Below, piece by piece: positions 30,524 to 51,969 of a DNA stretch of 54,783 nt. Below the pieces are notes generated by a model. That model was given only the letters and a program-made list of their open reading frames with translations. It was not told the origin of the DNA and did not search any database. Numbering within the stretch: the stretch's first letter is position 1; each line of letters starts with the position of its first letter. The stretch spans positions 1 to 54,783 of the IMG/VR virus record IMGVR_UViG_3300025086_000031; one strand, 5' to 3'. The translations under genes were made by a program, and so were the position numbers. This DNA comes from a virus (Duplodnaviria; Caudoviricetes).

Positions 30524-32581
30524 ATGGCTGGAGGATTTACTAGCGGTTTTGACCCTCAGATATTTGATTTTGCTGGTCACAGACTAAAAAAAGAAGAACT
30601 TAGACATAGAAAGAGACAGTCTGAAAAGAAGAAAGCTGAGGATAAGATGAAGCAGTCTGCTGTTAATCCGTCTAAGATAGATCCTAAGTTTCCTGAAAAA
30701 TTCATGCCTGGTCAGGAAGAATTACTAAGACAATTAGATTCTTATGCCGCTCTACATGCTAATTCATTAAATCCAAAAAACACTGCTGACGATGATATAG
30801 AAGGACAATTTGATCCTAATATATATTCTATATACAGAAATATGGAGCGTCAAGTGATGTTATTTTCAGAGCATACCGCAGGGTATGTAACAGATTATAA
30901 AAATCATCATGATCAGGTGTATCAAGTAGATGAGTTTGGTAATAACACTTATAATCTAGATATGGTAGAACAGGAGCCTGTGCATTTAACCAAAGAAGAT
31001 GTAGAAGGTAAAATGGGAAAAGGTGAGAGTATGGATGATTACAGCTGGATGTGGAACTCTGAAGGAACAGTTCATGATGATGGAGTAGGGCAACAAACAG
31101 CATTAAAAAATGAAAACGGAGAATATCAATATGAGGTAGGCCCTAATGGAGAGCAGTATTTATTAGGTCAGGATGGGAATAGGTTAACAGCTTACGAACT
31201 AGACGGAAATAATGAGGTGGTTCAATCAAAGTCTGGAATATACAAATTTGAGTCTATCTACAATCAAGAATATAATACTGACTTAATTAAGTTTAATGAA
31301 AAAGGAAATATAGTATATGGAGAAGAGGGTAGCGAAACTGCTTTCTATGATTATTGGAGCAGGGACTTTACTAAACTAGACAAAAAACAATATTCTACAA
31401 ATGGATTATATGAAATATCTCAAGGATTAAAATTTGAAGGAGCGTACGATGAGGCTGTTGGAGGTACAAATTCTTATTTAACTCCTGAAGCTATGAATGG
31501 TTTATGGTTTCAAGCTACTCAGGCCTACCAATGGAATAGTGATTTAAATGAAGGTAAAGGTGATTGGTCAAATGATTACGGTACTATAGCTTCTATGCAG
31601 GTTGCAGATATGATACTAAAAGAACAAGGAAATAATCAACCTAGTGTAGGAGCTAAAAATGATATTGTTAGAAAAATTCAATTAGGAAATTCAAAAGGTA
31701 AAGAAGAAGAATTATTAGGAGAATTGCCAGAATCTTTAAAGGGTTCTAGTAAATACGCTCCAGGTAAAAAAATAGAGACTTATCAAGATTACATGACTGA
31801 GATGATTCTAGAACAGTGGAAAGCTAGACATACTAGCGTGAAGATTAATAATCCAACTGTTACAGGAGTAGAGAATAAAGATATTTTATTTGACTGGGAT
31901 AACGCTGGTGTTCAACAAACTCAGATGTCAATCGGTCAAGAGGGTATGTCTGTTAATAATGATATGGGTTATGTTACTCAATTAGATAAAGATGTTAATC
32001 TTGATAGACCTTGGAGACCTACTGATATAAGTGATATAACTGATCATAATGATGTTGGATTCCAGGCTTTTGATCCTTCTTTAACTAAAATATTACAAAA
32101 AGGTGGAGCTCAGGGTGATGTTATAACAGGAACAACAGGATTTAGGGCGATAGATAAAAGAACGGGACAGTTAATGCATAACGCAACTTTTGATAAATCT
32201 AGCGGGTCATACGTATTTACAGATGCTGAAGCAGCAGAAAATGCTATAATAGTATTTGGTTTTGATGGATACTGGAAAGCTAAAGACCCTGACGATATTA
32301 GAAAGTTATATACTGGAGATAATGAAGGCATAATAGAAGGTTGGGAAAGTATAACTATAGATGAAATATTGTCTAATGATAAAGGTATACCAGGATTCTT
32401 CCCTATAAATAGTTCAACTTTAAGTGTTAGAGAATTAAAAGCTTATCAAAAAGGTATTGATAAAATGAAAGATATTAAGAAAGTTATAATAAAGGATGGT
32501 AAGAAAGAGGAGATAGCTATGAATGGTGAAGTAATAGGTGATGAATGGGGATTTCCTGGAGCTAATACAATGACAGCATAA
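30524..32581 (+). CDS. probable ejection/cargo protein
   Basis: 685 aa between the first cargo gene and the giant gene; positional inference. Confidence 0.6.
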   Translation: MAGGFTSGFDPQIFDFAGHRLKKEELRHRKRQSEKKKAEDKMKQSAVNPSKIDPKFPEKFMPGQEELLRQLDSYAALHANSLNPKNTADDDIEGQFDPNIYSIYRNMERQVMLFSEHTAGYVTDYKNHHDQVYQVDEFGNNTYNLDMVEQEPVHLTKEDVEGKMGKGESMDDYSWMWNSEGTVHDDGVGQQTALKNENGEYQYEVGPNGEQYLLGQDGNRLTAYELDGNNEVVQSKSGIYKFESIYNQEYNTDLIKFNEKGNIVYGEEGSETAFYDYWSRDFTKLDKKQYSTNGLYEISQGLKFEGAYDEAVGGTNSYLTPEAMNGLWFQATQAYQWNSDLNEGKGDWSNDYGTIASMQVADMILKEQGNNQPSVGAKNDIVRKIQLGNSKGKEEELLGELPESLKGSSKYAPGKKIETYQDYMTEMILEQWKARHTSVKINNPTVTGVENKDILFDWDNAGVQQTQMSIGQEGMSVNNDMGYVTQLDKDVNLDRPWRPTDISDITDHNDVGFQAFDPSLTKILQKGGAQGDVITGTTGFRAIDKRTGQLMHNATFDKSSGSYVFTDAEAAENAIIVFGFDGYWKAKDPDDIRKLYTGDNEGIIEGWESITIDEILSNDKGIPGFFPINSSTLSVRELKAYQKGIDKMKDIKKVIIKDGKKEEIAMNGEVIGDEWGFPGANTMTA

Positions 32582-32599: not shown

Positions 32600-35500
32600 A
32601 TGGCAGTAGTATATCAAAAAGATAAAAACGCTATTAGATTCGTTGCAGATTTCTACAAGAAGTTTAAGCCTAATCATAAGCTTACTCAGGTTGAGATTGA
32701 CTCGATCTTTGCCCAGTACGATGGTGATTATGAAACCATGGTTAAAGACATTTACGGTGCACTAACAGAATACACACCTAGTGATAGTGACATAACAAGT
32801 GTAATTAACCGTTACGCTTTAAAAAAAAAAGATTCGGCAAATGGTTTATTAGAATCGGCAACTGGAGAATCGGAGCAATTAGAAATAGACGAAAATAAAG
32901 AGGGTTTTACAGCTGAAGATGGAGCCTTTGTAACTGATCTTAATTTAAGTACAGACGAAGAAATACATAAAGGTTTAGAGGGTGCGAAAGCAGGCACTTC
33001 AGCAACTCTCAATTATAAAACTAAAGAGCCTAGAGTTTTAGAGGGTAGACAAGATTATCCTATACATGTTTATGCAGATGGCGGTTATCAGGGTGTATTG
33101 AAGCCTGGGGGTAAAATGAAAACCTCTCCAGCATCTAAAATAGTAGAAATTCCAACTGACAAATACTTTAAAGCACAAGATGGAGCCATAGTTCCTAATG
33201 AAGAAAATAATCAAGATGTGAGCATCGAGAATGAAGAAGATGTTTGGAATTATGATTATATACTAAAAACTTTCACTAAAAACGGATCTCCTGTAGATGC
33301 CTCACAAGTTCCTATTAATATTATGGGGGATCTAAAGATAGATATACAAAATCAACATGATCTTCAAAAAAGAGAAAAATCAAGAAATGATGCTGAGATT
33401 CAAGCAGGGTTAAAAAATGTAGAGTTTAACCAAAACTTTGAACAATTCTACGGACAAGAAGGTGACTTAAATTTCTACAAGGCAGCACAGCTATACGCTG
33501 AAAACCCTGAAAATTTTAATCTCCTATTAGAGAGTACAGAGGAGGGTCAATTTGTAGATTATGAGGGTATGCAAATACCTTTAACAACATCTATATCTGA
33601 AAGTGGGAAAGATTTAATATCCGCTGCTAATCCTGACACCAATACATTTTTCCATGAAGTGCCCGTAGGTGGAGGTTCTAATGAAGAAATTTTATCAGAA
33701 TACGGAATAGAGTCAGGTCTTGTTACGGGGGATGAAAATCAATCATTTCAATCTGTAGATGATGACGGTTTAACTCAGTATGAGACTATTTTAAACATGG
33801 ATAATCATATGGCTAGCTTATTAAATCAAAGGAGCGAACTTGTTGGTGGTAAACATGTATATAAAGAGGATAAGAAATCAAAGTTTTTAAGGCCAAAAGC
33901 TCTGTATGAAGAGGGTGTAGACCAAACAACGACACTTGGAAATATAAATTACAACACGCTTAGTGAGGATCAGAGATTTCAATATGAAAAATTAACAGAA
34001 CAGATAAATAATGTTAAAGGAGCTAAAGCTAAATTAAATGTACAATTATTAACATCTTCCAATAAACACGGTGTAAATGACGTAAAAACAGCTTATGGTG
34101 GATTAAAGACTCATGAGGATAGAGTATCTTTTTTTAATAGTAGTAGTGATCAAATAAACGATAAGGTAGATAGGTCTGAAAGTTATCAAATGAACTTAGT
34201 TGTAAGTGAGTTAAAAAATGAAATACAACAAGATTTAAGTGATGAATTTTCTGTTGACACAGAAGCTAAAGATCTTTTACAAAAATATCAAACCAATAAA
34301 GGGATAAAATTCAAAGGCCCTGAAGAAATGCTTGGAGATAAGGTTTTTATGAATCTTTATAGTGACTTTCAGAAGAGTAGACTTAACAAGATTAATATGA
34401 CTATTGCTGATATAGATTGGCAAAATGAAGAAACTTTTAAAACTCAAGTTAAGCTAAACGCTTCCTTAAAAAATATAAACAAACAACTTGAAAGGTTAGA
34501 GTTACAAAAGGAGAATGAGAAAATAGATGAGGATGAATATATTGAACAATCAACTAAATTAAATCAGCAAATATCTATTCTTAGAGAAAAAATGGAGGAG
34601 AATAGGGGAAAAAGAGGTTACGAGAGAGGTACGGAAATGTTTACAGAAACGGGAGAGAGGATAGAAGGACCTGTAGCTACAGAAGAAGATAAAATTATTC
34701 AACAGCAAATAACAAATAAAGAGGCAGAATTTATGCAAGCTTTAAGTCAGGCTGAGGATTATGGTGCGTTTGTTGATAAATTAATGAGAGCTCAAGATGG
34801 TTTATACTCTACTGAGTTAATGAATCAGGATATATGGAAGAATGAAAAAATGACTCTTCCTAGTGGTAAAGAGATGACTCTAGAGGAGATGTATAGTTTT
34901 ATACAGGCTCAATCTGGTGATACAGGTGCTCTTTGGAGTCTAGGTATTGGTGGTGGAGCAAAGGAGTTGAGAGAGCAATTTGACAGCGAAGCTGAAAGAA
35001 ATACTGGTGTTATTGGTTTAAGGCAACAGCTAAGAACTATAGATAAGTCAATCCCTATGATGATAGCTAAAAACTTTGGAGAGGGATCTAAGGAAGATGC
35101 TGTATTTATGATTGAGATGTTGAAAAATTTTAAAGGTAGGTATTATGAGAATCAAACTCAGTTAGTAGCTATGTCTAATGTATTAACATTCAATGTTGAT
35201 CCAGGAAAAGAATGGGGGGAGAAAACTGGAGCAGGATTATTTTTAAGACAAATGTCAGAGAGTTTTGGTCACGCTGTACATAAAAGGCATGTTCATAGCG
35301 AGGATGATATGATTAATTACTATGATGATATAGCTAATGCCTACGGAATAGAGTTAACAGACCAACAAAAGGTAGCTGGAGAAATAAGTTTAAATGACAT
35401 GGTGGCTCAAGGTGTGGGTACTACAGTTCCTATTATGATTGAAATGATTGCTACTATGCCTTTAGCTGGTGCTGGGTTAAAAACTCTTACCAAAGTGCCT

Positions 35501-38500
35501 TTGATTAAGAATGCTATGGTTGCTGCTAAAACTACAGATGTAGGTAAATTTTGGTGGAATTTTAGTGAGAATGTAGTTAGAGGTGCTGTAGCTTTTGAGA
35601 TGACATCAGGTGATCAGGCTACATGGAGAATGGGTGCTGCTGAGGGAGCTACAGAGCAAGTGATGAACTCTTTATTTAAAAGAACTCCTGTAACTAGATC
35701 TCTATTAACATTATATAGAAGTTTTGGAAAACCAGGTGTTAAAGTTGCTACCCTGCCTCCAAGAATCCTTGCGGGTGGTGGTGCTGAGCTTTTAGCGGAG
35801 TATTCAGGTGAGTTTGTTGAGAACTTAACTAATATGGGTTTTAACTGGGAAGAAGCTTTAATGGCTACTGTTGGTCAATCAAGAGACGAAAGGATAAATA
35901 AGTTAATGACTACAGCTATTATTTGTGTAGGTTTATCTACAGCTTTTACAACTTTAACAGCTAATAGCATAGAACAGAATTTTCAAGACATGCTAGATGG
36001 TGGTCAGTTAGGTCCTGAAGACACTAAATTAGTTCAAGACTTCTTAGGTGTTATGGATGAATATAAAAAATCACCACAAGGAGAACAATTAACATTATGG
36101 GGAGATGATGATTTTGACACTATGGTTGGAGAGACTCCAGATCACTTAAGTGGAGTAAATGGAGATGACGAAGGAGATACTCCTGGAGGTCCTACTATTC
36201 CTTTAGGGGAAGGTCCAGGTGGTTTACCTACTATTAAAGATGAGCGTGATGAAGATATTGGTATGCCAGCTTCTGGCGGTAGACAATTAACTCTTTTTGA
36301 AGACGAGTCAGTAAGGAGTTCTGCAGGAAATACAAGTTCGGTTAATCCTGGAAATAGATTATTTAATGACCCAAACCCAGAAACTTCACAAATAGCAAAA
36401 AATTATATAAATACTAATTCTCCTCAGATTGGAGTTCAACATTCAGATGCTACTCCAGTAACTGATATTAACGAAGAAAACTCTAAAAATATAGCTGATG
36501 CATATGAGGCTATGGAAAATAACCCTAACGATCCTAAAGTTCAGAAAGCTTACACAGCTCTAGCTAATGAAACACAAATGCAATATCAAGAATTAATAAA
36601 TGCTGGCTATACCATTGAAGTTTACAACGGTAAAGGAGAGCCTTATGCTAATAGTGACGAAATGATAAAAGATGTTAGGGATAATAAGCATTTGTATATA
36701 TTTGGAACAGAAACTGGTTTTGGTCAAGGTCAGATTACAGATCAAATGAGAGCAGAAAACCCCTTGCTTCAACCTACAGAATTTCAAGATGTTAACGGTA
36801 ATCCATTACTTGTTAATGATTTATTTAGAGCTGTTCATGATTTTTTTGGTCATACAGAGCTAGGTAATGGGTTTGGAATCAAAGGGGAGGAAAATGCTTG
36901 GCTTAATCACTCTAGAATGTTTAGTCATGACGCTAGAAGAGCTATGACAACAGAGACTAGAGGTCAAAACTCATGGGTTAATTTTAATCAAAAGTTAAGA
37001 AGAGAAGATGGGAGTATGCCTAAGAAGGGAGATCCTGATTATGTAAGACCTCAAGATAGACCTTTTGCAGACCAGAAAATAGGATTACTTCCTGATGAGT
37101 TTGTATTCCAACAACCATCAACGCCAAGTGTTACAGCTGACCCAGCGGTAGAAGTTACTCAAGATACTCCATTTAAGTATAATAGATCTAAAAAGGTATA
37201 CGAGGGAACTGTTAATAACAAACCATTTGTAATAGCTAAAAGATATGGTAAACAAGAATGGATAGAAGCTTTGTCTGGAGAAGTGTTAGGAAGAACTAAA
37301 AAAGAAGCTATAAAAACTTTAAAGTTAGCTATGGAAGGTCCTGTGGCTATGGATCTAATGGAGTCTACTGATCAAATAACAGAAGAGTTAGCTGGCATAA
37401 TAGATTTAATAAATGCTTCTACAAATGCTCATGATTCTGATGTTGATCCGAATACAAAATCTCCAGAAAATATAGAAAGTCTTGTAGATAGAACAATTAG
37501 AGGTATTGACTCAGAATTAGATAGAATAAATCGAAATAGAGGTAAGAACCTGTATATGGACGTAACTATGGGGTTAGGACCAGTGGCGTGGGAAGCCTTC
37601 TTAAAAGCTTTAAAAACAGGCTTAAAAGCGGGACAGAGTGTTTCCGTTGCTTTCAATAAAGCTGTAGAGTCTATAAAAGGATTAGATGAATTTAAGGAAG
37701 AAAGTATAGAATCTCTTAAGAAAAGGTTCTTATTTAATAATGATGGTGTTGTTAAGTTTGCTGAGGAAGCTATAATTAATAAAGTTACTGCACCTAAATT
37801 TCTTGAGGCTTTACAAGAGAAATATCCAGATCAGTATAACGAGATAGAAGCTAAAGAGATATATAAAATAGCTAAGTTAAGAGTTAATCCTAAAGTTGTT
37901 AGAAGTAATTATACTAGAAGTGAACTTAAACAAATAGATAACTTACAAAACAAAATAGATCAGCATAATAATGTTGACATGAAAAATGATCGTAGCTTAT
38001 CAGATCCTATGCAAATATTATTTGACGGAGGATTTGTAGTATTAAAGAATGGTAAACCTGTAATAAAAACTCTTCCTTTTAATTTTAATGGAGCTCCTAT
38101 ATTCCAAGGATTAAATGAGCAACAAAAAATAGAATTAGCTTCAGATTTACTTATACAGGATTTTAATACAAACAGCTCTAAAATAGATTTAGAAAGAGCT
38201 ACAGGTTGGTATAGTAAAACAAAAAACTTAATACAACAGAAGTTTGGTGGAAATGCACCAATATTCTTCGAGCTACTAGGCGTTACATCTCCACAAGCAC
38301 CACCTCAAGTTAACTTTAGAAAATCTACTGAAGTTTTAAGATCTTATTCAGAGGGTAAGTTTGATGAATCTTTAGAGATATACGATAATAAAGTTAAAGC
38401 TATAATGGCTCAATATGATCAAGGTGTTTTTGGTGTGGGTAAAAAGGCTGTAATAAAAGCTAAAGAACTTATAAAGCAAGCCTCTTCTGATCAAGATGTT

Positions 38501-41500
38501 GTGGCCGCTATAAAAAAGAAAAACGGAAAGTCATTCGGTCTTCCAGTAGTTACCTCAGGTATTGTTAGAGTTTTATATGGTAATTGGCTATCTAATAATC
38601 CAGCTAATAAAACAGGACAGTTTTACAATAACTTGTCTTTAAGAGATAGAAGTGCTACTATTGATGTTTGGGCTGCTAGGAATATGAGAAGAATAGTATA
38701 TTCTCAAGGAGGTTTTGTACCATTTAGAAGAAGACAATCTCAAGAAACAACAGTAGGTAATAAAGATTTTTCTTTTGCACAAAGTGTATATGCTGTAGCT
38801 GCTAAGAAGCTAAACTTAAACCCTGACGACCTACAAGCTGCTATGTGGTTTATAGAAAAACAAATATATGACGAATCTGGATTTAGTGGAACTGATAGAA
38901 CTGGAGCAGCTAAAGATCAAGCAACCATGGAAAACGCTGTAAATTCTGCTAAGATAACAGATAGAGTTATGGTGGGTGCTAGCACCTTTATAGGTAATAC
39001 AAGTCCAGAACAGAAAAACAGAATATATAGTGCTACAGCTAGAGCTATACAAAAAGCTTTAGAAAGAAATGCTACTGACGAAGAGATTGCCGCTGTGATA
39101 GCAGAGACTATGCAGGGTTCTGTAAGAATGGATCAAGCACTTCAAAACTTAGACGCTGTAGTTTCTTTATTAGGTGCTATGGGTAGACCATATCAGTCGG
39201 AAGGTATATATATGAATCAAACAGAAGATACTATAAATTTAGAAATGTTAGTTGATGCTGGAACAGATTTATCTCCTTTATTTGATGAGCTATTAAATAC
39301 AGCTATTAACAATGAGCAAGAGTCTGTGTTTGCATCTAAAGTGACAACAAAACAAGATCCTAACGCTAGACCTTTTAGGAGAATAGAGTTTGACTCTCCC
39401 ATGACACTTACTGATGCTAGAATGTTTGCTAATGAGCATTTTGGGCCTAATGGTGTAGAGGGATTAACTCTTAATTACAATCAAGAAGGTGAGGTTACGG
39501 GTATGTCAATGCAATTTGTTCCTGAATATTTAATGGAACCTATGGGTGAGGGTTTAACGATGGAAAATATAAAAGAATATGAGTCAAGATGGGAGGATGG
39601 TGCAAATAAAGCTATAAGAGAAATACAAGAAAAATACGGTGAAGATATTTTTAATACCGTAGAAAATGGATATATTAACACAAAAGTTTTTACAAATGGG
39701 GAATACGAAACAACTACAAGACAAGAAAAGTCGTTTGAAACAGACATCAATAGAGAGCTTGCCAGAAGGCAAAGAGCTATTAATAGCGGGGACAACGCCC
39801 AGGACATCTCTGATCTCAGAACAGGAGATGAATATTCTAGCGGAAGCGTTCAGCGTTTTCAAATCTTAACAGATTTTGCAGACAAATTAGATCAGATATA
39901 TAAAGATTTAGGTGGTAATGCTTATGCAGATCCATTTATGTCAATTCCTATTATTAGAGCCGCCCTCAAAACAGCTTCTATTACCCTTAGAGCCACTTCT
40001 AGTGTAGCTAAAGCTGTAGATGCAGCTATAGATTACTTAAATAGAGCTCAAGCTGATGGGGATAAATTTATTCCTAATCAAGAAGCTGAGATAAGAGAAT
40101 TATTCAAAAATTTCCTATCAACACAAGAAGGGTTGTTTAACCCTAAAGATCCTGGAATGTCTGGAGAAACTGAACTGACAGAAGAAGAAGCATCTCAACT
40201 TGAAGAGCAAGAGGCTCGTTTACAGGAAATGAGAGAAAGACGAGTTCTTGAGATGATTGACGCTTTAAATTCTGATATAGACCTTAAAGATTGGACGGAT
40301 GCAGACTACTCAGAAACTTTAGAAGAGTTACAGAAAGATCAAGATGCAGCATTCTCTAGGGGTAAAGATAATTTCTTTGGAAGGTTAGCGGATTTTAGAA
40401 GGTCTTTAGACAATATGTTTGTTAAATTAAAAGAGCAAACAGTAGATACTAAATTTAGAATAAAAAGATCTATTAGAAATATAGGTAAAGATTTAAATCT
40501 TAGTGAGACAGCTTCTAATGCACTCGCATCTATAACTCTATGGTTAACGGTTCCAGGTACAGCTAAAGAACTTATAGATCAAGCTAATAAAAAAATATGG
40601 GGAGCTTTATCTTCTGCTCAAATAAAACTGGTAGGTCAACTATCTACACTTGAAAGAATAATAGAGCTTGATAATTTATCTGACGCTCAAAAATCAGCAG
40701 CTGATGCTATTGTTAAGAACTTAAATATTTTATCTAAAAAACTTGGTAAAGCTAAAACAAAAGAGGAAAAAGCCGCTATAAAAGAACAAATAAAACAATC
40801 TGAAGCTCAAATAGATAACATATATAAAGATAACTCCAGTGTTAGTGTCAAGAAAAACGAGGATGGCTCAGGTTATTATTTAGAATATGTAACGAAAGAT
40901 AAGAGTGGAAAAGATCTTTTTATTAAAATGAAACCTGGTATAGCCTCAATAACTAATCCAACTACTAAGAGTAAGGTTTGGCCTTGGAGGATGAAGCATC
41001 CAGAGGTTAAAAATCCTAAAGGAGAAGGTTATGTCATGATGAATAAAGAGATTGCTGAAGGTATGATTAACAGCATGAAGTTGAAGGAAGGTGATGGGTT
41101 TAAAGTTATTAGAGAGACTACAGATAAATTATTTGAAGAATATCGTAATGAGTTAAAAAGAAATTTTGAAGCGGGGTTAATAGATGAGGCAACTTATAAT
41201 GAACTTAAAGATCTTAAATATAACCCTAGAAAGTTTGTTGATCACGTAATATTTACGGAGAGAAACTTGAATGAACAGAGGAAATCAGGTCGTGCTAATA
41301 AGGGTGATCATTTAGAGTCTCCTTTACAAATGTTAAAACAGGGTAGTGATCAGGTTCTTTTTATGGATCCAGTTAAGTTATTACAAAACACATTAGCTAT
41401 CGGAGCTAAATTAAGAGCTGAGAATGAGGTTAGAAGAGGTATATATGATATAATATCTCAAGCTACAAAGAAGGGGTTTGAGTACGTTAATGGAACAAAT

Positions 41501-44077
41501 ATGGCTGTAGAGGAAATAGGATATATACTAAAAGACGGAGAACAGGTGAGACCTGGATATGTGGAAATGAGCTATAATGAAGGTGGTAAAAAGATTAGGT
41601 TTGCCATGAAAAATGCTTCTTATGAAAGTTTATTTGCTCATCCTAGAGAAATGGTTCCTGCTGGGGATCAACTTAACATGATAACTGGACCCTTAAAATG
41701 GGGTGGTAGTATGCTTAAAACATTTGCTACTGGTGTTGGTGCACCATTTTTCTTTATTGCTAACGTGTTTTATGATTTTGCTCAGCAAGTTATGTTTACA
41801 GACACCTATAACGGTAATTGGTACGGATCAACTCTAGCAACAAAATTCGGAATAGCAGCTTCAGATTGGTTATCTGTAATGAAGGATGCAGCAACAAATG
41901 GACCACTTAGCCAGGAATATAAGATGCTTGGAGGTTCTTTAGAATTTATGACTAGATACGGATTAATGGATTACTCAACAGATTTATTGGTAAATGAAAA
42001 GGAGTTGTCAGAAAGAGTTAAAGAGATAATGTCTAATCCTGAAAACAAACTCAATGAAGATCAGGCTAGAGATCAAGCTATTCGAGAACAAGTGAGTAGA
42101 ATGTATGGTGATAACGCTCCTTACACAAACCCTAATACAAAAAGTGGATGGGAGATAATTAAAAGAGTTGTGTCATCTATGAACTCAACATCTGAAATGA
42201 CGGGTAGATTAGCTAATACTCGTAGATGGACTAAAAAATATATACAAGAGTATAAAGATAAAAACGATGGTCAAGAACCTACGGGTGAGGATCTTATACA
42301 AATCAAGAAAAGAGCTGTGGCTAATGCGGTTGATTACGCTAACTTTAATAATGGGGGGAAATCTATTAAGTTTTTTGATTCTTTAGGGTTTGCTTACCTT
42401 AATGCTGCATCACAAGTTCTTGATAAGAGTGTTAGGTATGTTAGTGAAAATCCAGCTCAATTCGCTTGGGATGCGGCACAATGGGCTGTAACATTTGGAG
42501 CTGGTATAATGGCTTACAACTTGCAGTATTTTGATATCTTAGATGAGGACGAAGAAGAAAGATTACAGAATAATTTAAATGATGCGATAGAGAGTGGGGA
42601 TAATAAATTAGAGAAAAGGATAAGAGAAAAGCTGTACAAAAACAGAAGATACTTTATAAATCATATTAGCGATTATGATATGGAGAATTATCACTGTATA
42701 ATATTACCTGGTAAAGTTACAGATATAGTGAGTCAAGAGAAAGAAATAGCTTTACAAGATCAATTAAAGATTGCTGAAAGCATGCCTATAGGGGAGGATA
42801 GAGATAAAAGAATAGCTGAAATTAAAGAGCAGTTATCTGATAATAGAGTTGTAACTCCTAGATATTTAAAGATACCTAGCGATGCTAGAATAAATGCTTT
42901 TAGAGTTGGTGTTGAAGATCTTACGTTTAAGCATATTACTGGATCTAACTACAGGGTTCAATCTGAAGACGCTTTATCATTTACTCCGTGGGGTAGAGGT
43001 GATGAGAAAAATTCTTACGGTAGAATATTACAGAAAGCTATACCAGCTGGTGGTGGTAATCCTAGGGATTTAGTAGCTTCAAATCCTCTCCTTAATGTAA
43101 TATTAAAAACAACTCAAAATTATGACGCTTTTTACAATAGACCTATATGGAAAGATTATAATGAAGGTGCTAATGGGTATACTCAGTATGAAGGTTCTTT
43201 TGATAAATATGAAGACAAGTGGCTAAGAGATTTATCTAAGAGACTTGATACAATGGGGTTGTGGGAAGGAGGTTTTCCTATTACAACTACAAAATCAGTT
43301 TTAAGTTCTTTATTTACCAATATGGATAGAAACCCAGTTAACGCTATAGTTAACCATAGTTATGTAGCTGCTACTGGAGGTCTTAATGAGTATGAGAAAG
43401 AACAATATGGAAATCAAATGAATATGTTTTTAAATGATGTTTTAGGCCCAGTAACAAAAAGGTATGTTGGAGATATTGATCTTCTTAGAAATCAAAAATC
43501 TAAATTACAAGCTGAAGCTGATCATATGAGAGAGACAGAAGATAGATTCCAAGCTAACTTAAGGCTTTCTTATCAAGCTGTTATAAACAAGAATGGAATA
43601 AGAAAAGATCCTGACACAGGAAATTGGATAGATGCTGACGGTAAGGTTATGAGACTTGAGGATTCAGATGGAGATGGATTATATGATGCTAAAGACTTTT
43701 TCTTATCTGAATCAGACAGAGTAATAAATCAAGTGGAGGATGAGCTTAGAGGTAGATTGGGTGAAGATGAGATTATAGATCAAAACTTATGGAACGTGGA
43801 AGAACAGAAAAAGCGAATACATAGAATGGTTGTTATGGATTGGAAGTATGGTGAAAACAGTTCTGATATTCAAAGGGCTATTATAGATTTTAAACAAGGT
43901 AATAAAATGACAGCAGCCTTTATGATATATCAAATAAGAAAAGAGTCAATGGGTGACTCGCAACAATATAGCTCTTTAATGAAGACTATTAGAGAAGAAA
44001 ATATAATTTCAGATCCTCAAGTTATGTATATGATGAAACAATTTGCAATAGCTGATGCTGAAAAAATTACAGAGTAA
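32600..44077 (+). CDS. giant virion-associated polyvalent protein (3825 aa), LPD38-like C-terminal region
   Basis: uninterrupted ORF; FRAVHDFFGH/GEENAW/TTETRGQNSW domain, TIDVW...QAAMW domain, DY.NF..GG...YLNA..Q..DK motif. Confidence 0.8.
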   Translation: MAVVYQKDKNAIRFVADFYKKFKPNHKLTQVEIDSIFAQYDGDYETMVKDIYGALTEYTPSDSDITSVINRYALKKKDSANGLLESATGESEQLEIDENKEGFTAEDGAFVTDLNLSTDEEIHKGLEGAKAGTSATLNYKTKEPRVLEGRQDYPIHVYADGGYQGVLKPGGKMKTSPASKIVEIPTDKYFKAQDGAIVPNEENNQDVSIENEEDVWNYDYILKTFTKNGSPVDASQVPINIMGDLKIDIQNQHDLQKREKSRNDAEIQAGLKNVEFNQNFEQFYGQEGDLNFYKAAQLYAENPENFNLLLESTEEGQFVDYEGMQIPLTTSISESGKDLISAANPDTNTFFHEVPVGGGSNEEILSEYGIESGLVTGDENQSFQSVDDDGLTQYETILNMDNHMASLLNQRSELVGGKHVYKEDKKSKFLRPKALYEEGVDQTTTLGNINYNTLSEDQRFQYEKLTEQINNVKGAKAKLNVQLLTSSNKHGVNDVKTAYGGLKTHEDRVSFFNSSSDQINDKVDRSESYQMNLVVSELKNEIQQDLSDEFSVDTEAKDLLQKYQTNKGIKFKGPEEMLGDKVFMNLYSDFQKSRLNKINMTIADIDWQNEETFKTQVKLNASLKNINKQLERLELQKENEKIDEDEYIEQSTKLNQQISILREKMEENRGKRGYERGTEMFTETGERIEGPVATEEDKIIQQQITNKEAEFMQALSQAEDYGAFVDKLMRAQDGLYSTELMNQDIWKNEKMTLPSGKEMTLEEMYSFIQAQSGDTGALWSLGIGGGAKELREQFDSEAERNTGVIGLRQQLRTIDKSIPMMIAKNFGEGSKEDAVFMIEMLKNFKGRYYENQTQLVAMSNVLTFNVDPGKEWGEKTGAGLFLRQMSESFGHAVHKRHVHSEDDMINYYDDIANAYGIELTDQQKVAGEISLNDMVAQGVGTTVPIMIEMIATMPLAGAGLKTLTKVPLIKNAMVAAKTTDVGKFWWNFSENVVRGAVAFEMTSGDQATWRMGAAEGATEQVMNSLFKRTPVTRSLLTLYRSFGKPGVKVATLPPRILAGGGAELLAEYSGEFVENLTNMGFNWEEALMATVGQSRDERINKLMTTAIICVGLSTAFTTLTANSIEQNFQDMLDGGQLGPEDTKLVQDFLGVMDEYKKSPQGEQLTLWGDDDFDTMVGETPDHLSGVNGDDEGDTPGGPTIPLGEGPGGLPTIKDERDEDIGMPASGGRQLTLFEDESVRSSAGNTSSVNPGNRLFNDPNPETSQIAKNYINTNSPQIGVQHSDATPVTDINEENSKNIADAYEAMENNPNDPKVQKAYTALANETQMQYQELINAGYTIEVYNGKGEPYANSDEMIKDVRDNKHLYIFGTETGFGQGQITDQMRAENPLLQPTEFQDVNGNPLLVNDLFRAVHDFFGHTELGNGFGIKGEENAWLNHSRMFSHDARRAMTTETRGQNSWVNFNQKLRREDGSMPKKGDPDYVRPQDRPFADQKIGLLPDEFVFQQPSTPSVTADPAVEVTQDTPFKYNRSKKVYEGTVNNKPFVIAKRYGKQEWIEALSGEVLGRTKKEAIKTLKLAMEGPVAMDLMESTDQITEELAGIIDLINASTNAHDSDVDPNTKSPENIESLVDRTIRGIDSELDRINRNRGKNLYMDVTMGLGPVAWEAFLKALKTGLKAGQSVSVAFNKAVESIKGLDEFKEESIESLKKRFLFNNDGVVKFAEEAIINKVTAPKFLEALQEKYPDQYNEIEAKEIYKIAKLRVNPKVVRSNYTRSELKQIDNLQNKIDQHNNVDMKNDRSLSDPMQILFDGGFVVLKNGKPVIKTLPFNFNGAPIFQGLNEQQKIELASDLLIQDFNTNSSKIDLERATGWYSKTKNLIQQKFGGNAPIFFELLGVTSPQAPPQVNFRKSTEVLRSYSEGKFDESLEIYDNKVKAIMAQYDQGVFGVGKKAVIKAKELIKQASSDQDVVAAIKKKNGKSFGLPVVTSGIVRVLYGNWLSNNPANKTGQFYNNLSLRDRSATIDVWAARNMRRIVYSQGGFVPFRRRQSQETTVGNKDFSFAQSVYAVAAKKLNLNPDDLQAAMWFIEKQIYDESGFSGTDRTGAAKDQATMENAVNSAKITDRVMVGASTFIGNTSPEQKNRIYSATARAIQKALERNATDEEIAAVIAETMQGSVRMDQALQNLDAVVSLLGAMGRPYQSEGIYMNQTEDTINLEMLVDAGTDLSPLFDELLNTAINNEQESVFASKVTTKQDPNARPFRRIEFDSPMTLTDARMFANEHFGPNGVEGLTLNYNQEGEVTGMSMQFVPEYLMEPMGEGLTMENIKEYESRWEDGANKAIREIQEKYGEDIFNTVENGYINTKVFTNGEYETTTRQEKSFETDINRELARRQRAINSGDNAQDISDLRTGDEYSSGSVQRFQILTDFADKLDQIYKDLGGNAYADPFMSIPIIRAALKTASITLRATSSVAKAVDAAIDYLNRAQADGDKFIPNQEAEIRELFKNFLSTQEGLFNPKDPGMSGETELTEEEASQLEEQEARLQEMRERRVLEMIDALNSDIDLKDWTDADYSETLEELQKDQDAAFSRGKDNFFGRLADFRRSLDNMFVKLKEQTVDTKFRIKRSIRNIGKDLNLSETASNALASITLWLTVPGTAKELIDQANKKIWGALSSAQIKLVGQLSTLERIIELDNLSDAQKSAADAIVKNLNILSKKLGKAKTKEEKAAIKEQIKQSEAQIDNIYKDNSSVSVKKNEDGSGYYLEYVTKDKSGKDLFIKMKPGIASITNPTTKSKVWPWRMKHPEVKNPKGEGYVMMNKEIAEGMINSMKLKEGDGFKVIRETTDKLFEEYRNELKRNFEAGLIDEATYNELKDLKYNPRKFVDHVIFTERNLNEQRKSGRANKGDHLESPLQMLKQGSDQVLFMDPVKLLQNTLAIGAKLRAENEVRRGIYDIISQATKKGFEYVNGTNMAVEEIGYILKDGEQVRPGYVEMSYNEGGKKIRFAMKNASYESLFAHPREMVPAGDQLNMITGPLKWGGSMLKTFATGVGAPFFFIANVFYDFAQQVMFTDTYNGNWYGSTLATKFGIAASDWLSVMKDAATNGPLSQEYKMLGGSLEFMTRYGLMDYSTDLLVNEKELSERVKEIMSNPENKLNEDQARDQAIREQVSRMYGDNAPYTNPNTKSGWEIIKRVVSSMNSTSEMTGRLANTRRWTKKYIQEYKDKNDGQEPTGEDLIQIKKRAVANAVDYANFNNGGKSIKFFDSLGFAYLNAASQVLDKSVRYVSENPAQFAWDAAQWAVTFGAGIMAYNLQYFDILDEDEEERLQNNLNDAIESGDNKLEKRIREKLYKNRRYFINHISDYDMENYHCIILPGKVTDIVSQEKEIALQDQLKIAESMPIGEDRDKRIAEIKEQLSDNRVVTPRYLKIPSDARINAFRVGVEDLTFKHITGSNYRVQSEDALSFTPWGRGDEKNSYGRILQKAIPAGGGNPRDLVASNPLLNVILKTTQNYDAFYNRPIWKDYNEGANGYTQYEGSFDKYEDKWLRDLSKRLDTMGLWEGGFPITTTKSVLSSLFTNMDRNPVNAIVNHSYVAATGGLNEYEKEQYGNQMNMFLNDVLGPVTKRYVGDIDLLRNQKSKLQAEADHMRETEDRFQANLRLSYQAVINKNGIRKDPDTGNWIDADGKVMRLEDSDGDGLYDAKDFFLSESDRVINQVEDELRGRLGEDEIIDQNLWNVEEQKKRIHRMVVMDWKYGENSSDIQRAIIDFKQGNKMTAAFMIYQIRKESMGDSQQYSSLMKTIREENIISDPQVMYMMKQFAIADAEKITE
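32818..32830 (+). other. candidate slippery site TTT-A10
   Basis: T TTA AAA AAA AAA in the reading frame; -1 frame stays open for 22 more codons with a patterned peptide. Confidence 0.55.
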
Positions 44078-44113: not shown

Positions 44114-45187
44114 ATGAAAAAGGACATAAGTAAAATACTTTATATAATAATGATGATAGTGGTATTTGGTATATCCACTGCTTTTAGTCAAGGAGACTTT
44201 TTTAAGTATTCCACTTTCTACACTTCAATGACTATGAACACTCCTTTTGTTGAGAGGGGTGACTATGTAGCTGCAGATAAAGGCTATGAGGATGTAACTC
44301 AAGTCCATCCATACGATTATAATTTAACTCTCGGCTTGAGAAAAATAGCACGATTTGATTATGAATACAAAGTTAAAACATGGTATTATGGAACTGAAAA
44401 AGCTGTTGCAGATAATGTTACTATTGGTAATAGCGTTGGTTGGGAGTATCTACTTAATTATTCATTTATACGTAATCGTGGTGATAAATATACTGAGCAA
44501 AATTTCTGGCTTAGATACCTTGGAGATAAATGTGTAACAAAAGTTCAGTATAAGGATAATCAGAGAGTTAATTTAAGATATAACTCATTCGATACAAGAT
44601 TTAGGATTAATAAGGGAAATTGGGATTTTACTATTGGTGGAGTATTTCGTATGCACCCAGTATATGGTGTCACTCCAATAGAAGATTTCTGGATTCCTGG
44701 AGAGTCTACTTTTCAACAGTTAGCAGAGGATTTTGGATATGCTCCAGAACAATGGGTTCAGGGGTTTTATGTTAATCAAAACTGGTACGATGTTAGTGGT
44801 GGAGACTCCGTTTTGGTCGCTACCTCGAATGATGAGTTCTTCAACCACTACTTCGGTGATGCAGTGGAAACATATAATGAGAGAGAGTTAGAAAAACTTG
44901 GAATGCAGAAAGAATTAAGTGCTGTTATAGGAATAGCATACTATAAATATACCCCTAAAATGTGGATGCACGCTTGGGTTAATTGCATGCCTGTTCACTA
45001 CGGAATGGATGAGTATTCATTTGAATATGGTAAAGAAGATTGGGATAATATGGAGTGGGATGCTGGTATGGTATTTGGATCTAGAATAACCAAGAACTTG
45101 GGAATGTTTGTGGAGGGAACTCATATGCGTTATTGGATGAAACCTGTATATGAAGTAAAGTTTGGTTTTAACTATTTAATATTTTAA
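44114..45187 (+). CDS. outer-membrane beta-barrel protein (putative)
   Basis: signal peptide ending AFS-Q; aromatic amphipathic strands; C-terminal YEVKFGFNYLIF beta-signal. Confidence 0.72.
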   Translation: MKKDISKILYIIMMIVVFGISTAFSQGDFFKYSTFYTSMTMNTPFVERGDYVAADKGYEDVTQVHPYDYNLTLGLRKIARFDYEYKVKTWYYGTEKAVADNVTIGNSVGWEYLLNYSFIRNRGDKYTEQNFWLRYLGDKCVTKVQYKDNQRVNLRYNSFDTRFRINKGNWDFTIGGVFRMHPVYGVTPIEDFWIPGESTFQQLAEDFGYAPEQWVQGFYVNQNWYDVSGGDSVLVATSNDEFFNHYFGDAVETYNERELEKLGMQKELSAVIGIAYYKYTPKMWMHAWVNCMPVHYGMDEYSFEYGKEDWDNMEWDAGMVFGSRITKNLGMFVEGTHMRYWMKPVYEVKFGFNYLIF

Positions 45188-51104: not shown

Positions 51105-51503
51105 TTATTTACTTTTATTATTGTTTTTATTACTTTTTATTTTCTCGATTGATCTACCAGCGAAGTACGCTGAGTATACTACAAGTAGGAGCTGGGTGTA
51201 AATTGGACCGTACATTGGATTCATTTTAAACTCCCCTACATTACCGTCAAAGAATGACATAACTACCAGCATAATAGTTAAAAAAGCTAGAGTTAGAGGC
51301 CTAATATTAGCTGGTAACCATCCCGCTTTAGCGTCAGCCTCCCATCTTCTAGTAACTTGCTCTTGAGCGTTCATCTGAGACTTAGCTATAAGCTCTTTCA
51401 TCCTCAATTTTAAGGACATCTTTTCCTCTTCTGTTGTTACACACTCATCTATTATAGTTGATGCGTTTCCTATTAAACTTTTAAATATGTCTCCTAGTAT
51501 CAT
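51105..51503 (-). CDS. holin (3TM/GTA-holin-like)
   Basis: T.EEK...RWEAD...WL..NIRP, TM helices, AYF.GRS.EK. Confidence 0.75.
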   Translation of the reverse strand: MILGDIFKSLIGNASTIIDECVTTEEEKMSLKLRMKELIAKSQMNAQEQVTRRWEADAKAGWLPANIRPLTLAFLTIMLVVMSFFDGNVGEFKMNPMYGPIYTQLLLVVYSAYFAGRSIEKIKSNKNNNKSK

Positions 51504-51969
51504 TACGCCTTTCTTTTCTTGTATATTTTTTTTTCAGTTTCTCTACAACTTCCATAATTTGTTTTTGAGTCCCTGGCATGTAAAGATCGTAACTTTTTTT
51601 CTGTTTTGCAAGCGTGTTCTTAAATAATTTCCACCTAAGATTGAACGCTTCTGTTCTAAGACCTTTACATTCTATGATCCATCCTTGCTCAAGATTAGTA
51701 AAGTCAGGAAGGTATGTAGCTTGTGATATATTTTCAGAAGATTTTAAAAATACATTCTTCCCCTTCCTCTTCTTCTTCTCAATACATTCACCCTTATATA
51801 TAAACTTATCTATAAGAACAAATCTATCTTCTTCATATTTAAAAGGTATGCCCGCCACCTTAAGGCATTGATATGTAAACTTCTCTAGCTTAGATTTAAA
51901 TTTAACACCATTAAATGTGGTGGCTGTGGCATTCCTTACTTTTTTATTGTATTTCCTTTTTCTTTTCAT
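51481..51969 (-). CDS. PD-(D/E)XK nuclease (T7 endonuclease I/DUF1064-like)
   Basis: FKSKLE...YE...YLPDF...IIECKG. Confidence 0.8.
   Translation of the reverse strand: MKRKRKYNKKVRNATATTFNGVKFKSKLEKFTYQCLKVAGIPFKYEEDRFVLIDKFIYKGECIEKKKRKGKNVFLKSSENISQATYLPDFTNLEQGWIIECKGLRTEAFNLRWKLFKNTLAKQKKSYDLYMPGTQKQIMEVVEKLKKKYTRKERRNDTRRHI

What the first reader, a model, noticed from the sequence alone, without database searches (positions are those of the whole stretch)
32818..32898. Hidden -1 frameshift product of the giant gene: slippery TTT-A10 followed by a dual-coded basic/aromatic tail
Seen: at codons 74-77 the gene reads T TTA AAA AAA AAA, which contains overlapping X XXY YYZ heptamers and an A10 run. 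Frame 0 continues as an acidic linker (DSANGLLESATGESEQ) using TCG for all three Ser, odd for this AT-rich genome. The -1 frame reads RFGKWFIRIGNWRIGAIRNRRK-stop (TAA 32896-32898), with a repeating R-(F/I)-G-x-W pattern and no acidic residue. Known: such sites drive -1 ribosomal frameshifting or RNAP slippage, and phages use them to fix protein ratios. Inference: the gene makes both a 3825-aa protein and a 99-aa isoform sharing the N-terminal domain but ending in a cationic amphipathic membrane- or DNA-binding tail. ORF callers would miss this, and I do not know it as described for ejection proteins.
Basis: partly seen in the sequence, partly recalled or inferred. Interest (0 to 1): 0.82.

Follow-up and report, generated by a model that had tools for sequence, protein, structure and literature searches.

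The report
Conserved frameshift in giant phage gene
A run of ten A's near the start of a giant marine-phage gene is unchanged in distant relatives, and it very probably lets the phage also make a 99-residue protein whose basic tail is read in a shifted frame.

Summary
Codons 74-77 of the 3825-codon ORF (32600-44077) read TTA AAA AAA AAA, giving A10 at 32821-32830. The -1 frame then gives 22 basic/aromatic residues and a TAA at 32896-98.

Comparative evidence supports a real recoding site.
- Run length: 34 homologous loci from viral and marine metagenome contigs reach the site, and 33 have exactly A10 in the same codon phase. That is 24 of 25 distinct sequences, with N-domain identity down to about 31-44%.
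- Frozen codons: L-K-K-K is the only one of 146 four-codon windows with no substitution. Control Lys and Leu columns use mixed codons.
- Periodicity: downstream, substitution periodicity switches to the -1 frame (chi2=50, p=1e-11).
- Selection: pN/pS is 0.37 in the -1 frame against 1.15 in frame 0. The N-domain scores 0.40 in its own frame.
- Tail: the peptide is conserved and always open for 22-26 codons.

No RNA structure is conserved downstream and no nucleotide element upstream. I therefore favour RNA-polymerase slippage (A11 transcripts) over ribosomal -1 shifting. Neither mechanism nor the product has been shown directly, and the tail's function is unknown.

This is a new member of a known kind, comparable to Thermus dnaX or Citrobacter tssM1. 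I found no description of it in print.

The parts
32600..44077 (+). Giant ORF, 3825 aa. It closes the virion structural module and is probably a packaged or ejected 'polyvalent'-type protein.
   Evidence: ORF list and translation. Neighbours are virion structural proteins, portal, terminase and capsid. An internal domain is 41-51% identical to a domain of phage proteins annotated as lysin or large polyvalent protein.
32600..32830 (+). N-domain, codons 1-77, shared by both products. It is a small four-helix domain ending in the invariant L-K-K-K.
   Evidence: HMMER against 1.84 G representatives gave 18 hits. The AlphaFold model of the natural short form P0006 has helices 9-23, 29-39, 43-54 and 61-71 with pLDDT about 80-85. 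Its own-frame pN/pS is 0.40.
32821..32830 (+). A10 run, the shift site. It is the last base of Leu74 TTA plus three AAA Lys codons.
   Evidence: It is the longest homopolymer in the window. It is A10 in the same phase in 33 of the 34 loci that reach the site. There are no substitutions in 12 nucleotides across 23 distinct sequences, and it is the only such window of 146.
32830..32898 (+). -1-frame tail of 22 codons (RFGKWFIRIGNWRIGAIRNRRK) plus stop TAA at 32896-98, net charge +8. It overlaps the frame-0 linker.
   Evidence: Translation. The tail is conserved and open for 22-26 codons in all relatives. Its pN/pS is 0.37 against 1.15 for frame 0. Substitution periodicity is in the -1 phase.
32831..32898 (+). 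Frame-0 acidic Ser/Gly/Glu linker of the giant protein (codons 78-100), dual-coded with the tail. Its amino acids are poorly constrained.
   Evidence: pN/pS is 1.15. The net charge of the stretch is -6. The three rare TCG Ser codons coincide with (F/I)-G in the -1 frame.
32832..32852 (+). +1 frame after the run: six codons (IRQMVY), then TAG at 32850-52. This is what an A9 transcript would give. It is not conserved.
   Evidence: +1 open length ranges from 6 to more than 40 codons among relatives. pN/pS is 1.05.

Best explanation
The A10 run at codons 74-77 is a conserved programmed recoding site. Most expression gives the 3825-aa virion protein. A set fraction is shifted into the -1 frame at the run and ends 22 codons later. 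That gives a 99-aa protein made of the four-helix N-domain plus a strongly basic Arg/Trp/Gly/Ile-rich tail.

The -1 frame is the constrained one in the overlap. Frame 0 there is only a tolerant acidic linker.

Mechanism I commit to: RNA polymerase slips on the ten-A tract and adds one A. The resulting A11 transcripts are then translated normally into the short form. Ribosomal -1 slippage on A AAA AAA is the main alternative and would give the same protein.

What is shown and what is inferred:
- Shown: conservation of the run, of the open -1 frame and of its peptide, and purifying selection in the -1 frame.
- Inferred: that the product is made, the mechanism, the ratio of products and the role of the tail.

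My guess for the role is that the tail tethers the shared N-domain to a membrane surface or to nucleic acid during assembly or ejection of the giant protein. I hold this at low confidence.

Odds: a functional trans-frame product exists, about 0.8. Of that, roughly 0.5 is by transcription, 0.3 by the ribosome, and the rest by both or another route.
For: 1. Run conservation.
- The site is reached in 34 loci: the window, 10 from viral contigs, 21 of 22 from metagenome contigs (L035 stops before the site), and L038/L039. Of these, 33 have exactly A10 starting at the third base of the Leu codon.
- They make up 25 distinct sequences, of which 24 have A10.
- N-domain identity falls to 41-44%. It is lower still in the L038 clade, which was found with P0018 (31% to the window).
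- One of the two search patterns did not include the Lys run, and patterns are degenerate peptides, so AAG versions could have been found.

2. Frozen synonymous sites.
- Across 23 distinct sequences, codons 74-77 have 0 parsimony changes at all 12 positions. The N-domain averages 3.4 changes per third position.
- This is the only zero window of 146.
- Control columns: Lys7 is AAA 10 / AAG 9. Lys9 is 16 / 6. Leu55 uses 4 codons. Lys75-77 are AAA in 23 of 23, and Leu74 is TTA in 23 of 23.

3. Periodicity switch. Changes at frame-0 positions 1/2/3:
- N-domain: 129/86/243.
- Overlap codons 78-95: 15/46/23. Chi2 = 50.1, p = 1.3e-11 against the N-domain; chi2 = 33.9, p = 4e-8 against downstream.
- Downstream: 91/53/104.

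4. pN/pS over all 253 pairs.
- Overlap: frame 0 is 1.15, the -1 frame 0.37, the +1 frame 1.05. The N-domain is 0.40.
- Twelve chosen representatives gave 1.17, 0.35, 1.02 and 0.39.
- Control: in 18 of 18 sliding 18-codon windows of the N-domain, frame 0 is lowest (0.12-0.72) and the -1 frame is 1.33-4.88.

5. The tail.
- The peptide is conserved as R[FL]G[KR][WF][FY][IV]R[IF]G.W[RY]IG.., with a stop after 22-26 codons in every locus.
- In the distant clade it reads ..KFGWGRYYVRWGNWWFGLFRG.
- By chance only 3% of positions have 22 or more open -1 codons.

6. Mechanism.
- No downstream structure: z = +0.75 for the window and 0 conserved pairs in 11 diverse sequences.
- Codons 68-73 upstream vary freely, with 3-7 third-position changes each.
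- All ten A's are frozen, including the silent third base of Leu74. A heptamer would not need that.
- Bacterial RNA polymerase slips efficiently on runs of 9 A or T; Thermus dnaX makes tau and gamma this way (passages of PMC5009743).
- Citrobacter tssM1 uses an A11 run, and both forms and their ratio are needed (abstract of PMC4256274).
- Ribosome sliding was weak on A9 and A10 and robust only from A11 in an E. coli cell-free system (section 11 of PMC4363877).
Against: - There is no direct evidence of A11 RNA or of the 99-aa protein.
- Contigs from three RNA libraries of two studies (X17, X18, X20) cross the run with A10 and no gap. Contigs drop minor variants, and DNA carry-over is possible, so this neither shows nor excludes slippage.
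- One locus (L024) has A9 in its DNA.
- Four singleton protein clusters in the big protein library are short ORFs that run from the N-domain straight into a shifted frame: P0006, P0007, P0009 and P0013, seen on 3, 2, 1 and 1 contigs. The tract is therefore also variable or error-prone at the DNA or assembly level.
- L022, a low-coverage contig, has a partly different, Lys-rich tail.
- The tail model is of low confidence, pLDDT 45-60.
- Its helical amphipathicity is not significant; 2-21% of shuffles reach the same moment.
- The p-values treat sites as independent and use a tree built from the same alignment. The sequences are metagenomic and phylogenetically related.
- Neither the host nor the polymerase that transcribes this gene is known.
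Confidence: 0.8

Rival explanations
1. The product and site are as above, but the shift is made by the ribosome. Either tandem -1 slippage of tRNA-Lys on A AAA AAA, or sliding on the poly(A) stretch, occurs on ordinary A10 mRNA.
For: Two overlapping in-frame A AAA AAA heptamers are present and invariant. Iterated AAA codons cause pausing and frame loss in E. coli (abstract of PMC4363877). The -1 ORF evidence fits this reading equally well.
Against: There is no downstream stem-loop or pseudoknot, either in the window or conserved. There is no conserved upstream element. The tenth A (Leu74 TTA, 23 of 23) is frozen although a heptamer does not need it. Sliding gave little product on A9 or A10 and needed A11 (section 11 of PMC4363877).
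Confidence: 0.3
2. The tract is a DNA-level contingency tract. Replication slippage makes heritable A9, A10 and A11 subpopulations, and the short form comes only from variant genomes.
For: L024 carries A9. Short ORFs with shifted tails exist in other assemblies, one on a 62-kb contig.
Against: 24 of 25 distinct sequences have A10. Variant genomes would lose the N-domain from the giant protein. A tail made only in rare, probably defective genomes would not keep a pN/pS of 0.37. The variants are singletons and could be homopolymer errors.
Confidence: 0.07
3. No second protein is made. The run is kept as a poly-lysine or poly(A) translational attenuator, or as part of the domain's L-K-K-K motif. 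The stretch after it is conserved as a nucleotide element (the repeated GAWTCGG), not as a reading frame.
For: L-K-K-K is conserved at the protein level in all 12 phage-type HMMER hits. A local nucleotide repeat exists. AAA runs lower protein output (abstract of PMC4363877).
Against: This does not explain the three-base periodicity in the -1 phase, the pN/pS of 0.37 in the -1 frame against 1.15 and 1.05 in the other two, or the always-open -1 frame. In the distant L038 clade the nucleotides differ, with GATGGGG in place of GATTCGG and a 21-nt insertion, yet the tail's residue pattern is kept.
Confidence: 0.1
4. The feature is a chance result of an AT-rich genome, seen as conserved only because the relatives are close.
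For: The genome is 34% G+C and AAA makes up 71% of Lys codons. 2 of 11 K-K-K triplets in the window are all-AAA.
Against: Flanking synonymous sites are near saturation, with pS 0.64 in the N-domain. The run has no change, and the control Lys and Leu columns are mixed.
Confidence: 0.02

Closest known systems
Thermus thermophilus dnaX (tau/gamma) by transcriptional slippage on a run of nine A/T (passages of PMC5009743)
   Same: The long product is encoded in one uninterrupted ORF. A homopolymer run of 9-10 lies inside the coding sequence. Shifted transcripts give a short product with the same N-terminus that ends at a nearby out-of-frame stop. No RNA structure is needed.
   Different: Here the shift is at 2% of the gene rather than mid-gene. 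The -1 tail is 22-26 residues and is itself under purifying selection, so it is more than a stop. Only one of the two alternative frames is conserved. The gene is a phage virion gene. Slippage is not shown here.
Citrobacter rodentium / Yersinia tssM1 A11 slippage (abstract of PMC4256274)
   Same: A poly(A) tract of 10-11 gives two length variants of a large envelope-machine protein. In that system both forms and their ratio are needed.
   Different: In tssM1 the DNA frame encodes the short form and slippage restores the long one. Here the DNA frame encodes the long form. The proteins are unrelated.
Phage lambda G/GT and other tail-assembly-chaperone frameshifts (Figure 4 legend of PMC5009743)
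   Same: A phage morphogenesis gene makes two proteins with a common N-terminal part at a fixed ratio through a -1 shift.
   Different: In lambda the shift extends the protein and happens near the 3' end of G on a ribosomal slippery heptamer. Here the shift truncates a giant protein after its first domain, on a ten-A run. The gene family and the position in the module are different.
Potyvirus P3N-PIPO (abstract start of PMC4552492 in the listing; passage)
   Same: A short overlapping ORF hidden inside a very long ORF is reached by polymerase slippage on an A-run. It was first detected through conservation of the overlapping frame.
   Different: That is an RNA virus using a viral RNA-dependent polymerase and a GAAAAAA-type site. 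The motif is recalled and comes from no call.

Membership tests
Programmed transcriptional slippage site (Thermus dnaX, Shigella spa13, Citrobacter tssM1 type) | Homopolymeric A or T run of about 9 or more inside the coding sequence | tested here: met
   A10 lies at 32821-32830. It is A10 in 33 of the 34 loci that reach the site.
Programmed transcriptional slippage site (Thermus dnaX, Shigella spa13, Citrobacter tssM1 type) | Run length is kept at silent positions, beyond what the protein needs | tested here: met
   There are 0 changes in 12 nt across 23 distinct sequences. Leu74 is TTA in 23 of 23 and Lys75-77 are AAA in 23 of 23, while control Lys and Leu columns are mixed.
Programmed transcriptional slippage site (Thermus dnaX, Shigella spa13, Citrobacter tssM1 type) | mRNA is heterogeneous in run length while DNA is uniform | tested here: inconclusive
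   Only Logan contigs of RNA libraries could be laid. Three contigs cross the run with A10 and no gap. Contigs cannot show minor forms.
Programmed transcriptional slippage site (Thermus dnaX, Shigella spa13, Citrobacter tssM1 type) | The alternative-frame product is conserved or functional | tested here: met
   The -1 frame is open for 22-26 codons in all loci. Its pN/pS is 0.37 against 1.15 in frame 0, and periodicity is in the -1 phase.
Canonical -1 programmed ribosomal frameshift cassette | In-frame slippery heptamer X XXY YYZ | tested here: met
A AAA AAA occurs twice, overlapping, and is invariant.
Canonical -1 programmed ribosomal frameshift cassette | Stimulatory stem-loop or pseudoknot a few bases downstream | tested here: not met
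   The 120 nt downstream fold no better than shuffles, z = +0.75. RNAalifold on 11 diverse sequences gave 0 pairs.
Canonical -1 programmed ribosomal frameshift cassette | Conserved upstream stimulator (Shine-Dalgarno-like, as in E. coli dnaX) | tested here: not met
   Third positions of codons 68-73 change 3-7 times each on the tree, so no frozen nucleotides lie upstream.
Ribosome sliding on poly(A) | About 11 consecutive A in the mRNA for robust sliding (E. coli cell-free system; section 11 of PMC4363877) | tested here: not met
   The run encoded in DNA is A10. That length gave little product in the study cited. Host ribosomes may differ.
DNA-level phase-variable homopolymer tract | Run length is polymorphic among closely related genomes | tested here: not met
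   24 of 25 distinct sequences have A10 and one has A9. Four singleton short-ORF clusters exist in the protein library.
Phage packaged or ejected giant 'polyvalent' protein (context of the gene) | The gene lies in the virion module and shares domains with proteins annotated as such | tested here: inconclusive
   It follows virion structural genes. Residues about 1250-1500 are 41-51% identical to a domain of proteins annotated lysin or large polyvalent protein, and the C-terminal part is 29% identical to a Cellulophaga phage virion structural protein. Presence in virions is not testable here.

The most novel reading that the evidence does not exclude
A whole clade of uncultured marine podoviruses may depend on obligatory polymerase slippage at a fixed A10 tract, setting the ratio between two products. 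One is a giant ejected polyvalent protein. The other is a 99-residue adaptor that carries the same N-terminal docking domain fused to an Arg/Trp/Gly-rich tail that seeks membrane or nucleic acid. The adaptor would nucleate or anchor the giant protein during packaging or ejection. The frame-0 linker would have evolved purely as the shadow of the hidden frame. The distant capsid relatives are the Cellulophaga phi38:1 and Flavobacterium phages.
Probability: 0.2. Interest if true: 0.75.

Novelty: new member of a known kind. Interest (0 to 1): 0.66.

Why it matters
- It adds a well-supported recoding site in a phage gene family with no cultured member and no annotation. I found no description of it in print.
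- The site recurs in marine metagenomes. Of the 24 sequencing runs listed, 20 hold at least part of the stretch, and those 20 come from 13 studies.
- Gene callers report only the giant ORF. When an assembly has the wrong run length, they split the gene.
- The hidden frame is more constrained than the annotated frame, which makes this a clean test case for overlap-detection methods.
- If slippage is confirmed, it would be a phage structural-gene example of productive transcriptional slippage, and a way to study polymerase or ribosome slippage in Bacteroidota-type hosts.
- The 99-aa protein is a concrete lead to how giant internal proteins are handled.

Tried and rejected
- Close DNA and protein searches in 50,697 phage records found nothing for this region or for the N-domain. 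No cultured relative carries the site.
- The upstream gene as an anchor gave only one locus.
- P0015 as a query in viral contigs gave no locus. The clade with an acidic N-terminal extension (P0013, P0015, P0016) could not be checked at the DNA level.
- Tandem Repeats Finder saw no array in the overlap.
- Pfam, PHROGs, the ESM Atlas and Foldseek against PDB gave no usable match for the N-domain or for P0006. PHROGs gave only phrog_14682 at E = 0.0056, of unknown function. Foldseek's best E-value was 0.63.
- Complex prediction on two copies of the short form returned 'no answer', so nothing follows from it.
- Hydrophobic-moment analysis did not establish an amphipathic helix.
- RNA-library contigs showed only A10. 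The X15 contig ended before the run.
- Supplements of the cited papers were not opened.
- Four literature searches found no description of this case. The library lacks most subscription journals.
Full report
**What is in the sequence**

The window is an IMG/VR virus record of 54.8 kb with 34% G+C. ORF 32600-44077 (+) encodes 3825 aa.

- Codons 73-78 are GCT TTA AAA AAA AAA GAT. That puts TTT at 32818-20 and ten A's at 32821-32830.
- Frame 0 continues as an acidic Ser/Gly/Glu stretch in which all three Ser are TCG.
- The -1 frame reads 22 residues (RFGKWFIRIGNWRIGAIRNRRK) and stops at TAA 32896-98.
- Upstream, that frame is closed by TAA at 32806-08 and has no start codon. It can only be entered by a frame change.

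Residues 1-77 plus 22 give 99.

**Chance**

In-frame X XXY YYZ heptamers are commonplace here, with 113 in the 24 ORFs. The heptamer alone means nothing. Several other features are unusual:

- A10 is the longest homopolymer in the window; the next are A8 and two T9.
- Only 3.0% of codon positions in this gene are followed by 22 or more open -1 codons.
- TCG is 31 of 1004 Ser codons, and three of those are in this stretch.
- GAWTCGG occurs three times in the window, all within 32831-32873.
- Two of 11 K-K-K triplets in the window are all-AAA.

**Relatives**

Searches of the phage collection found nothing for this region.

A HMMER search with residues 1-77 against 1.84 billion representatives gave 18 hits.
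- Twelve are phage-type proteins that all end the domain with L-K-K-(K).
- Four of those twelve are short ORFs of 98-148 aa that run from the domain directly into a shifted frame. One, P0006, carries a tail very like the window's -1 tail. Each is a singleton cluster seen on 1-3 contigs.

- One locus, L035, ends before the site.
- Of the 34 loci that reach it, 33 have exactly A10 starting at the third base of the Leu codon. One, L024, has A9.
- They make 25 distinct sequences.
- N-domain identity to the window falls to 41-44%. It is lower in the L038/L039 clade, whose gene starts at 1480 and stays open to the locus end.
- In all ten viral loci examined, frame 0 stays open to the locus end.

**The hidden frame is the constrained one**

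I used 23 distinct A10 sequences. L024 was left out because of its frame, and L038 because of an insertion. I aligned codons, built a tree and counted parsimony changes.

| Region | Changes at frame-0 positions 1/2/3 |
|---|---|
| N-domain | 129/86/243 (usual pattern) |
| Codons 74-77 | 0/0/0 |
| Codons 78-95 | 15/46/23 |
| Downstream | 91/53/104 |

- In codons 78-95 the most variable position is the third position of the -1 frame.
- The overlap differs from the N-domain (chi2 = 50.1, p = 1.3e-11) and from the downstream part (chi2 = 33.9, p = 4e-8).
- L-K-K-K is the only one of 146 four-codon windows with no change.
- Conserved Lys7 and Lys9 use AAA and AAG at 10/9 and 16/6. Leu55 uses four codons. 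Lys75-77 are AAA and Leu74 is TTA in 23 of 23.

Pairwise pN/pS over all 253 pairs:

| Region and frame | pN/pS |
|---|---|
| N-domain, own frame | 0.40 |
| Overlap, frame 0 | 1.15 |
| Overlap, -1 frame | 0.37 |
| Overlap, +1 frame | 1.05 |

- Twelve chosen representatives gave the same picture.
- As a control, frame 0 is the lowest in 18 of 18 sliding windows inside the N-domain.

The tail peptide is conserved, as R[FL]G[KR][WF][FY][IV]R[IF]G.W[RY]IG.., with a stop after 22-26 codons. In the distant clade the nucleotides differ and 21 nt are inserted, yet the tail keeps the same Arg/Trp/Gly/aromatic pattern.

The +1 frame varies from 6 to more than 40 open codons and shows no constraint.

The rare TCG codons are explained by this arrangement. 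Ser in frame 0 followed by Gly in the -1 frame forces T-C-G-G.

These p-values are approximate. Sites are treated as independent, the tree comes from the same data, and the sequences are related.

**Mechanism**

- No structure follows the run, either in the window (z = +0.75) or as a conserved fold in 11 diverse sequences (0 pairs).
- Nothing upstream is frozen.
- All ten A's are frozen, including a silent one that a heptamer would not need.
- Bacterial RNA polymerase slips efficiently on runs of nine A or T, and Thermus dnaX uses this to make two products (passages of PMC5009743).
- Citrobacter tssM1 uses A11, and both forms are needed (abstract of PMC4256274).
- Ribosome sliding was weak on A9 and A10 and robust from A11 (section 11 of PMC4363877).

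I therefore favour polymerase slippage giving A11 transcripts. Ribosomal -1 slippage on A AAA AAA is the main alternative.

Contigs of three RNA libraries from two studies cross the run with A10 and no gap. This shows the region is present in RNA libraries. It says nothing about minor forms.

**What the products are**

The gene closes the structural module, which contains terminase, portal, capsid and virion proteins. The capsid protein is 27% identical to those of Cellulophaga phi38:1-like and Flavobacterium podophages.

An internal domain of the giant protein is 41-51% identical to a domain in phage proteins annotated as lysin or large polyvalent protein.

A model of the natural short form P0006, using an alignment of unaltered N-domain and tail translations, has mean pLDDT 70.5. 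It shows a four-helix N-domain (pLDDT 80-85) and a low-confidence hairpin tail. Foldseek found no PDB match.

The tail has net charge +5 to +8, while the same nucleotides in frame 0 give -5 to -6. Helical amphipathicity is not significant. The role of the tail, whether membrane or nucleic-acid tethering of the shared domain, is a guess.

**Against my reading**

- No RNA or protein evidence exists.
- One A9 locus and four shifted singleton ORFs show that the tract also varies or is mis-assembled at the DNA level.
- L022 has a partly different tail.
- The P0013/P0015/P0016 clade could not be checked at the DNA level.

**Novelty**

Four literature searches found no description of this site. The kind of event is well known from dnaX, tssM1, lambda G/GT and P3N-PIPO. 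This is a new, well-supported member in a new gene family of uncultured marine phages.

Noticed in passing
P0002, P0010, P0012 (hits): The phage N-domain matches a roughly 40-residue helical unit that is repeated 19, 6 and 9 times in long Pro/Ala/Ser-linked proteins that look eukaryotic (P0002 has E = 4.7e-40 over 19 stretches). No Pfam family covers it. The origin and meaning of this shared module are unexplained.
   Followed up: partly
window 51526-51534 (- strand gene 51481-51969): This is a second long run. A9 encodes K-K-K at codons 146-148 of a 162-aa endonuclease/resolvase-like gene. One shifted frame stays open past the normal stop for at least 34 more codons. Conservation was not examined.
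   Followed up: partly
L024:1501-1800: This is the only locus with A9. The N-domain there runs into a 16-residue +1-type tail, and the giant ORF continues in another frame. It is either an assembly error or a genome that would need slippage to make the fused giant protein.
   Followed up: no
L022:1501-1845: In this low-coverage contig the middle of the overlap is replaced by a Lys/Glu-rich stretch. The -1 frame is still open for 26 codons and keeps the first eight tail residues.
   Followed up: no
window 36350-37100 (giant protein residues about 1250-1500): This domain is 41-51% identical to a domain found in cyanophage and other phage proteins annotated variously as lysin, large polyvalent protein or RelA/SpoT. 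It matches phrog_3170, of unknown function. It contains an HDFFGH-like motif and its function is unassigned.
   Followed up: partly
window 32650-33050, runs X16 and X19: Two oligo-dT-primed marine RNA libraries hold a small share of this stretch. Internal priming on the A10 run could explain why a phage gene appears in poly(A)-selected libraries.
   Followed up: no
window 2174-4864 (-), 6025-8199, 8522-9892, 30524-32581, 44114-45187: Five ORFs, four of them of 456-896 aa, have no PHROG or Pfam match at E <= 0.001. No RNA polymerase was recognised in the window, so it is unknown which polymerase transcribes the giant gene.
   Followed up: partly
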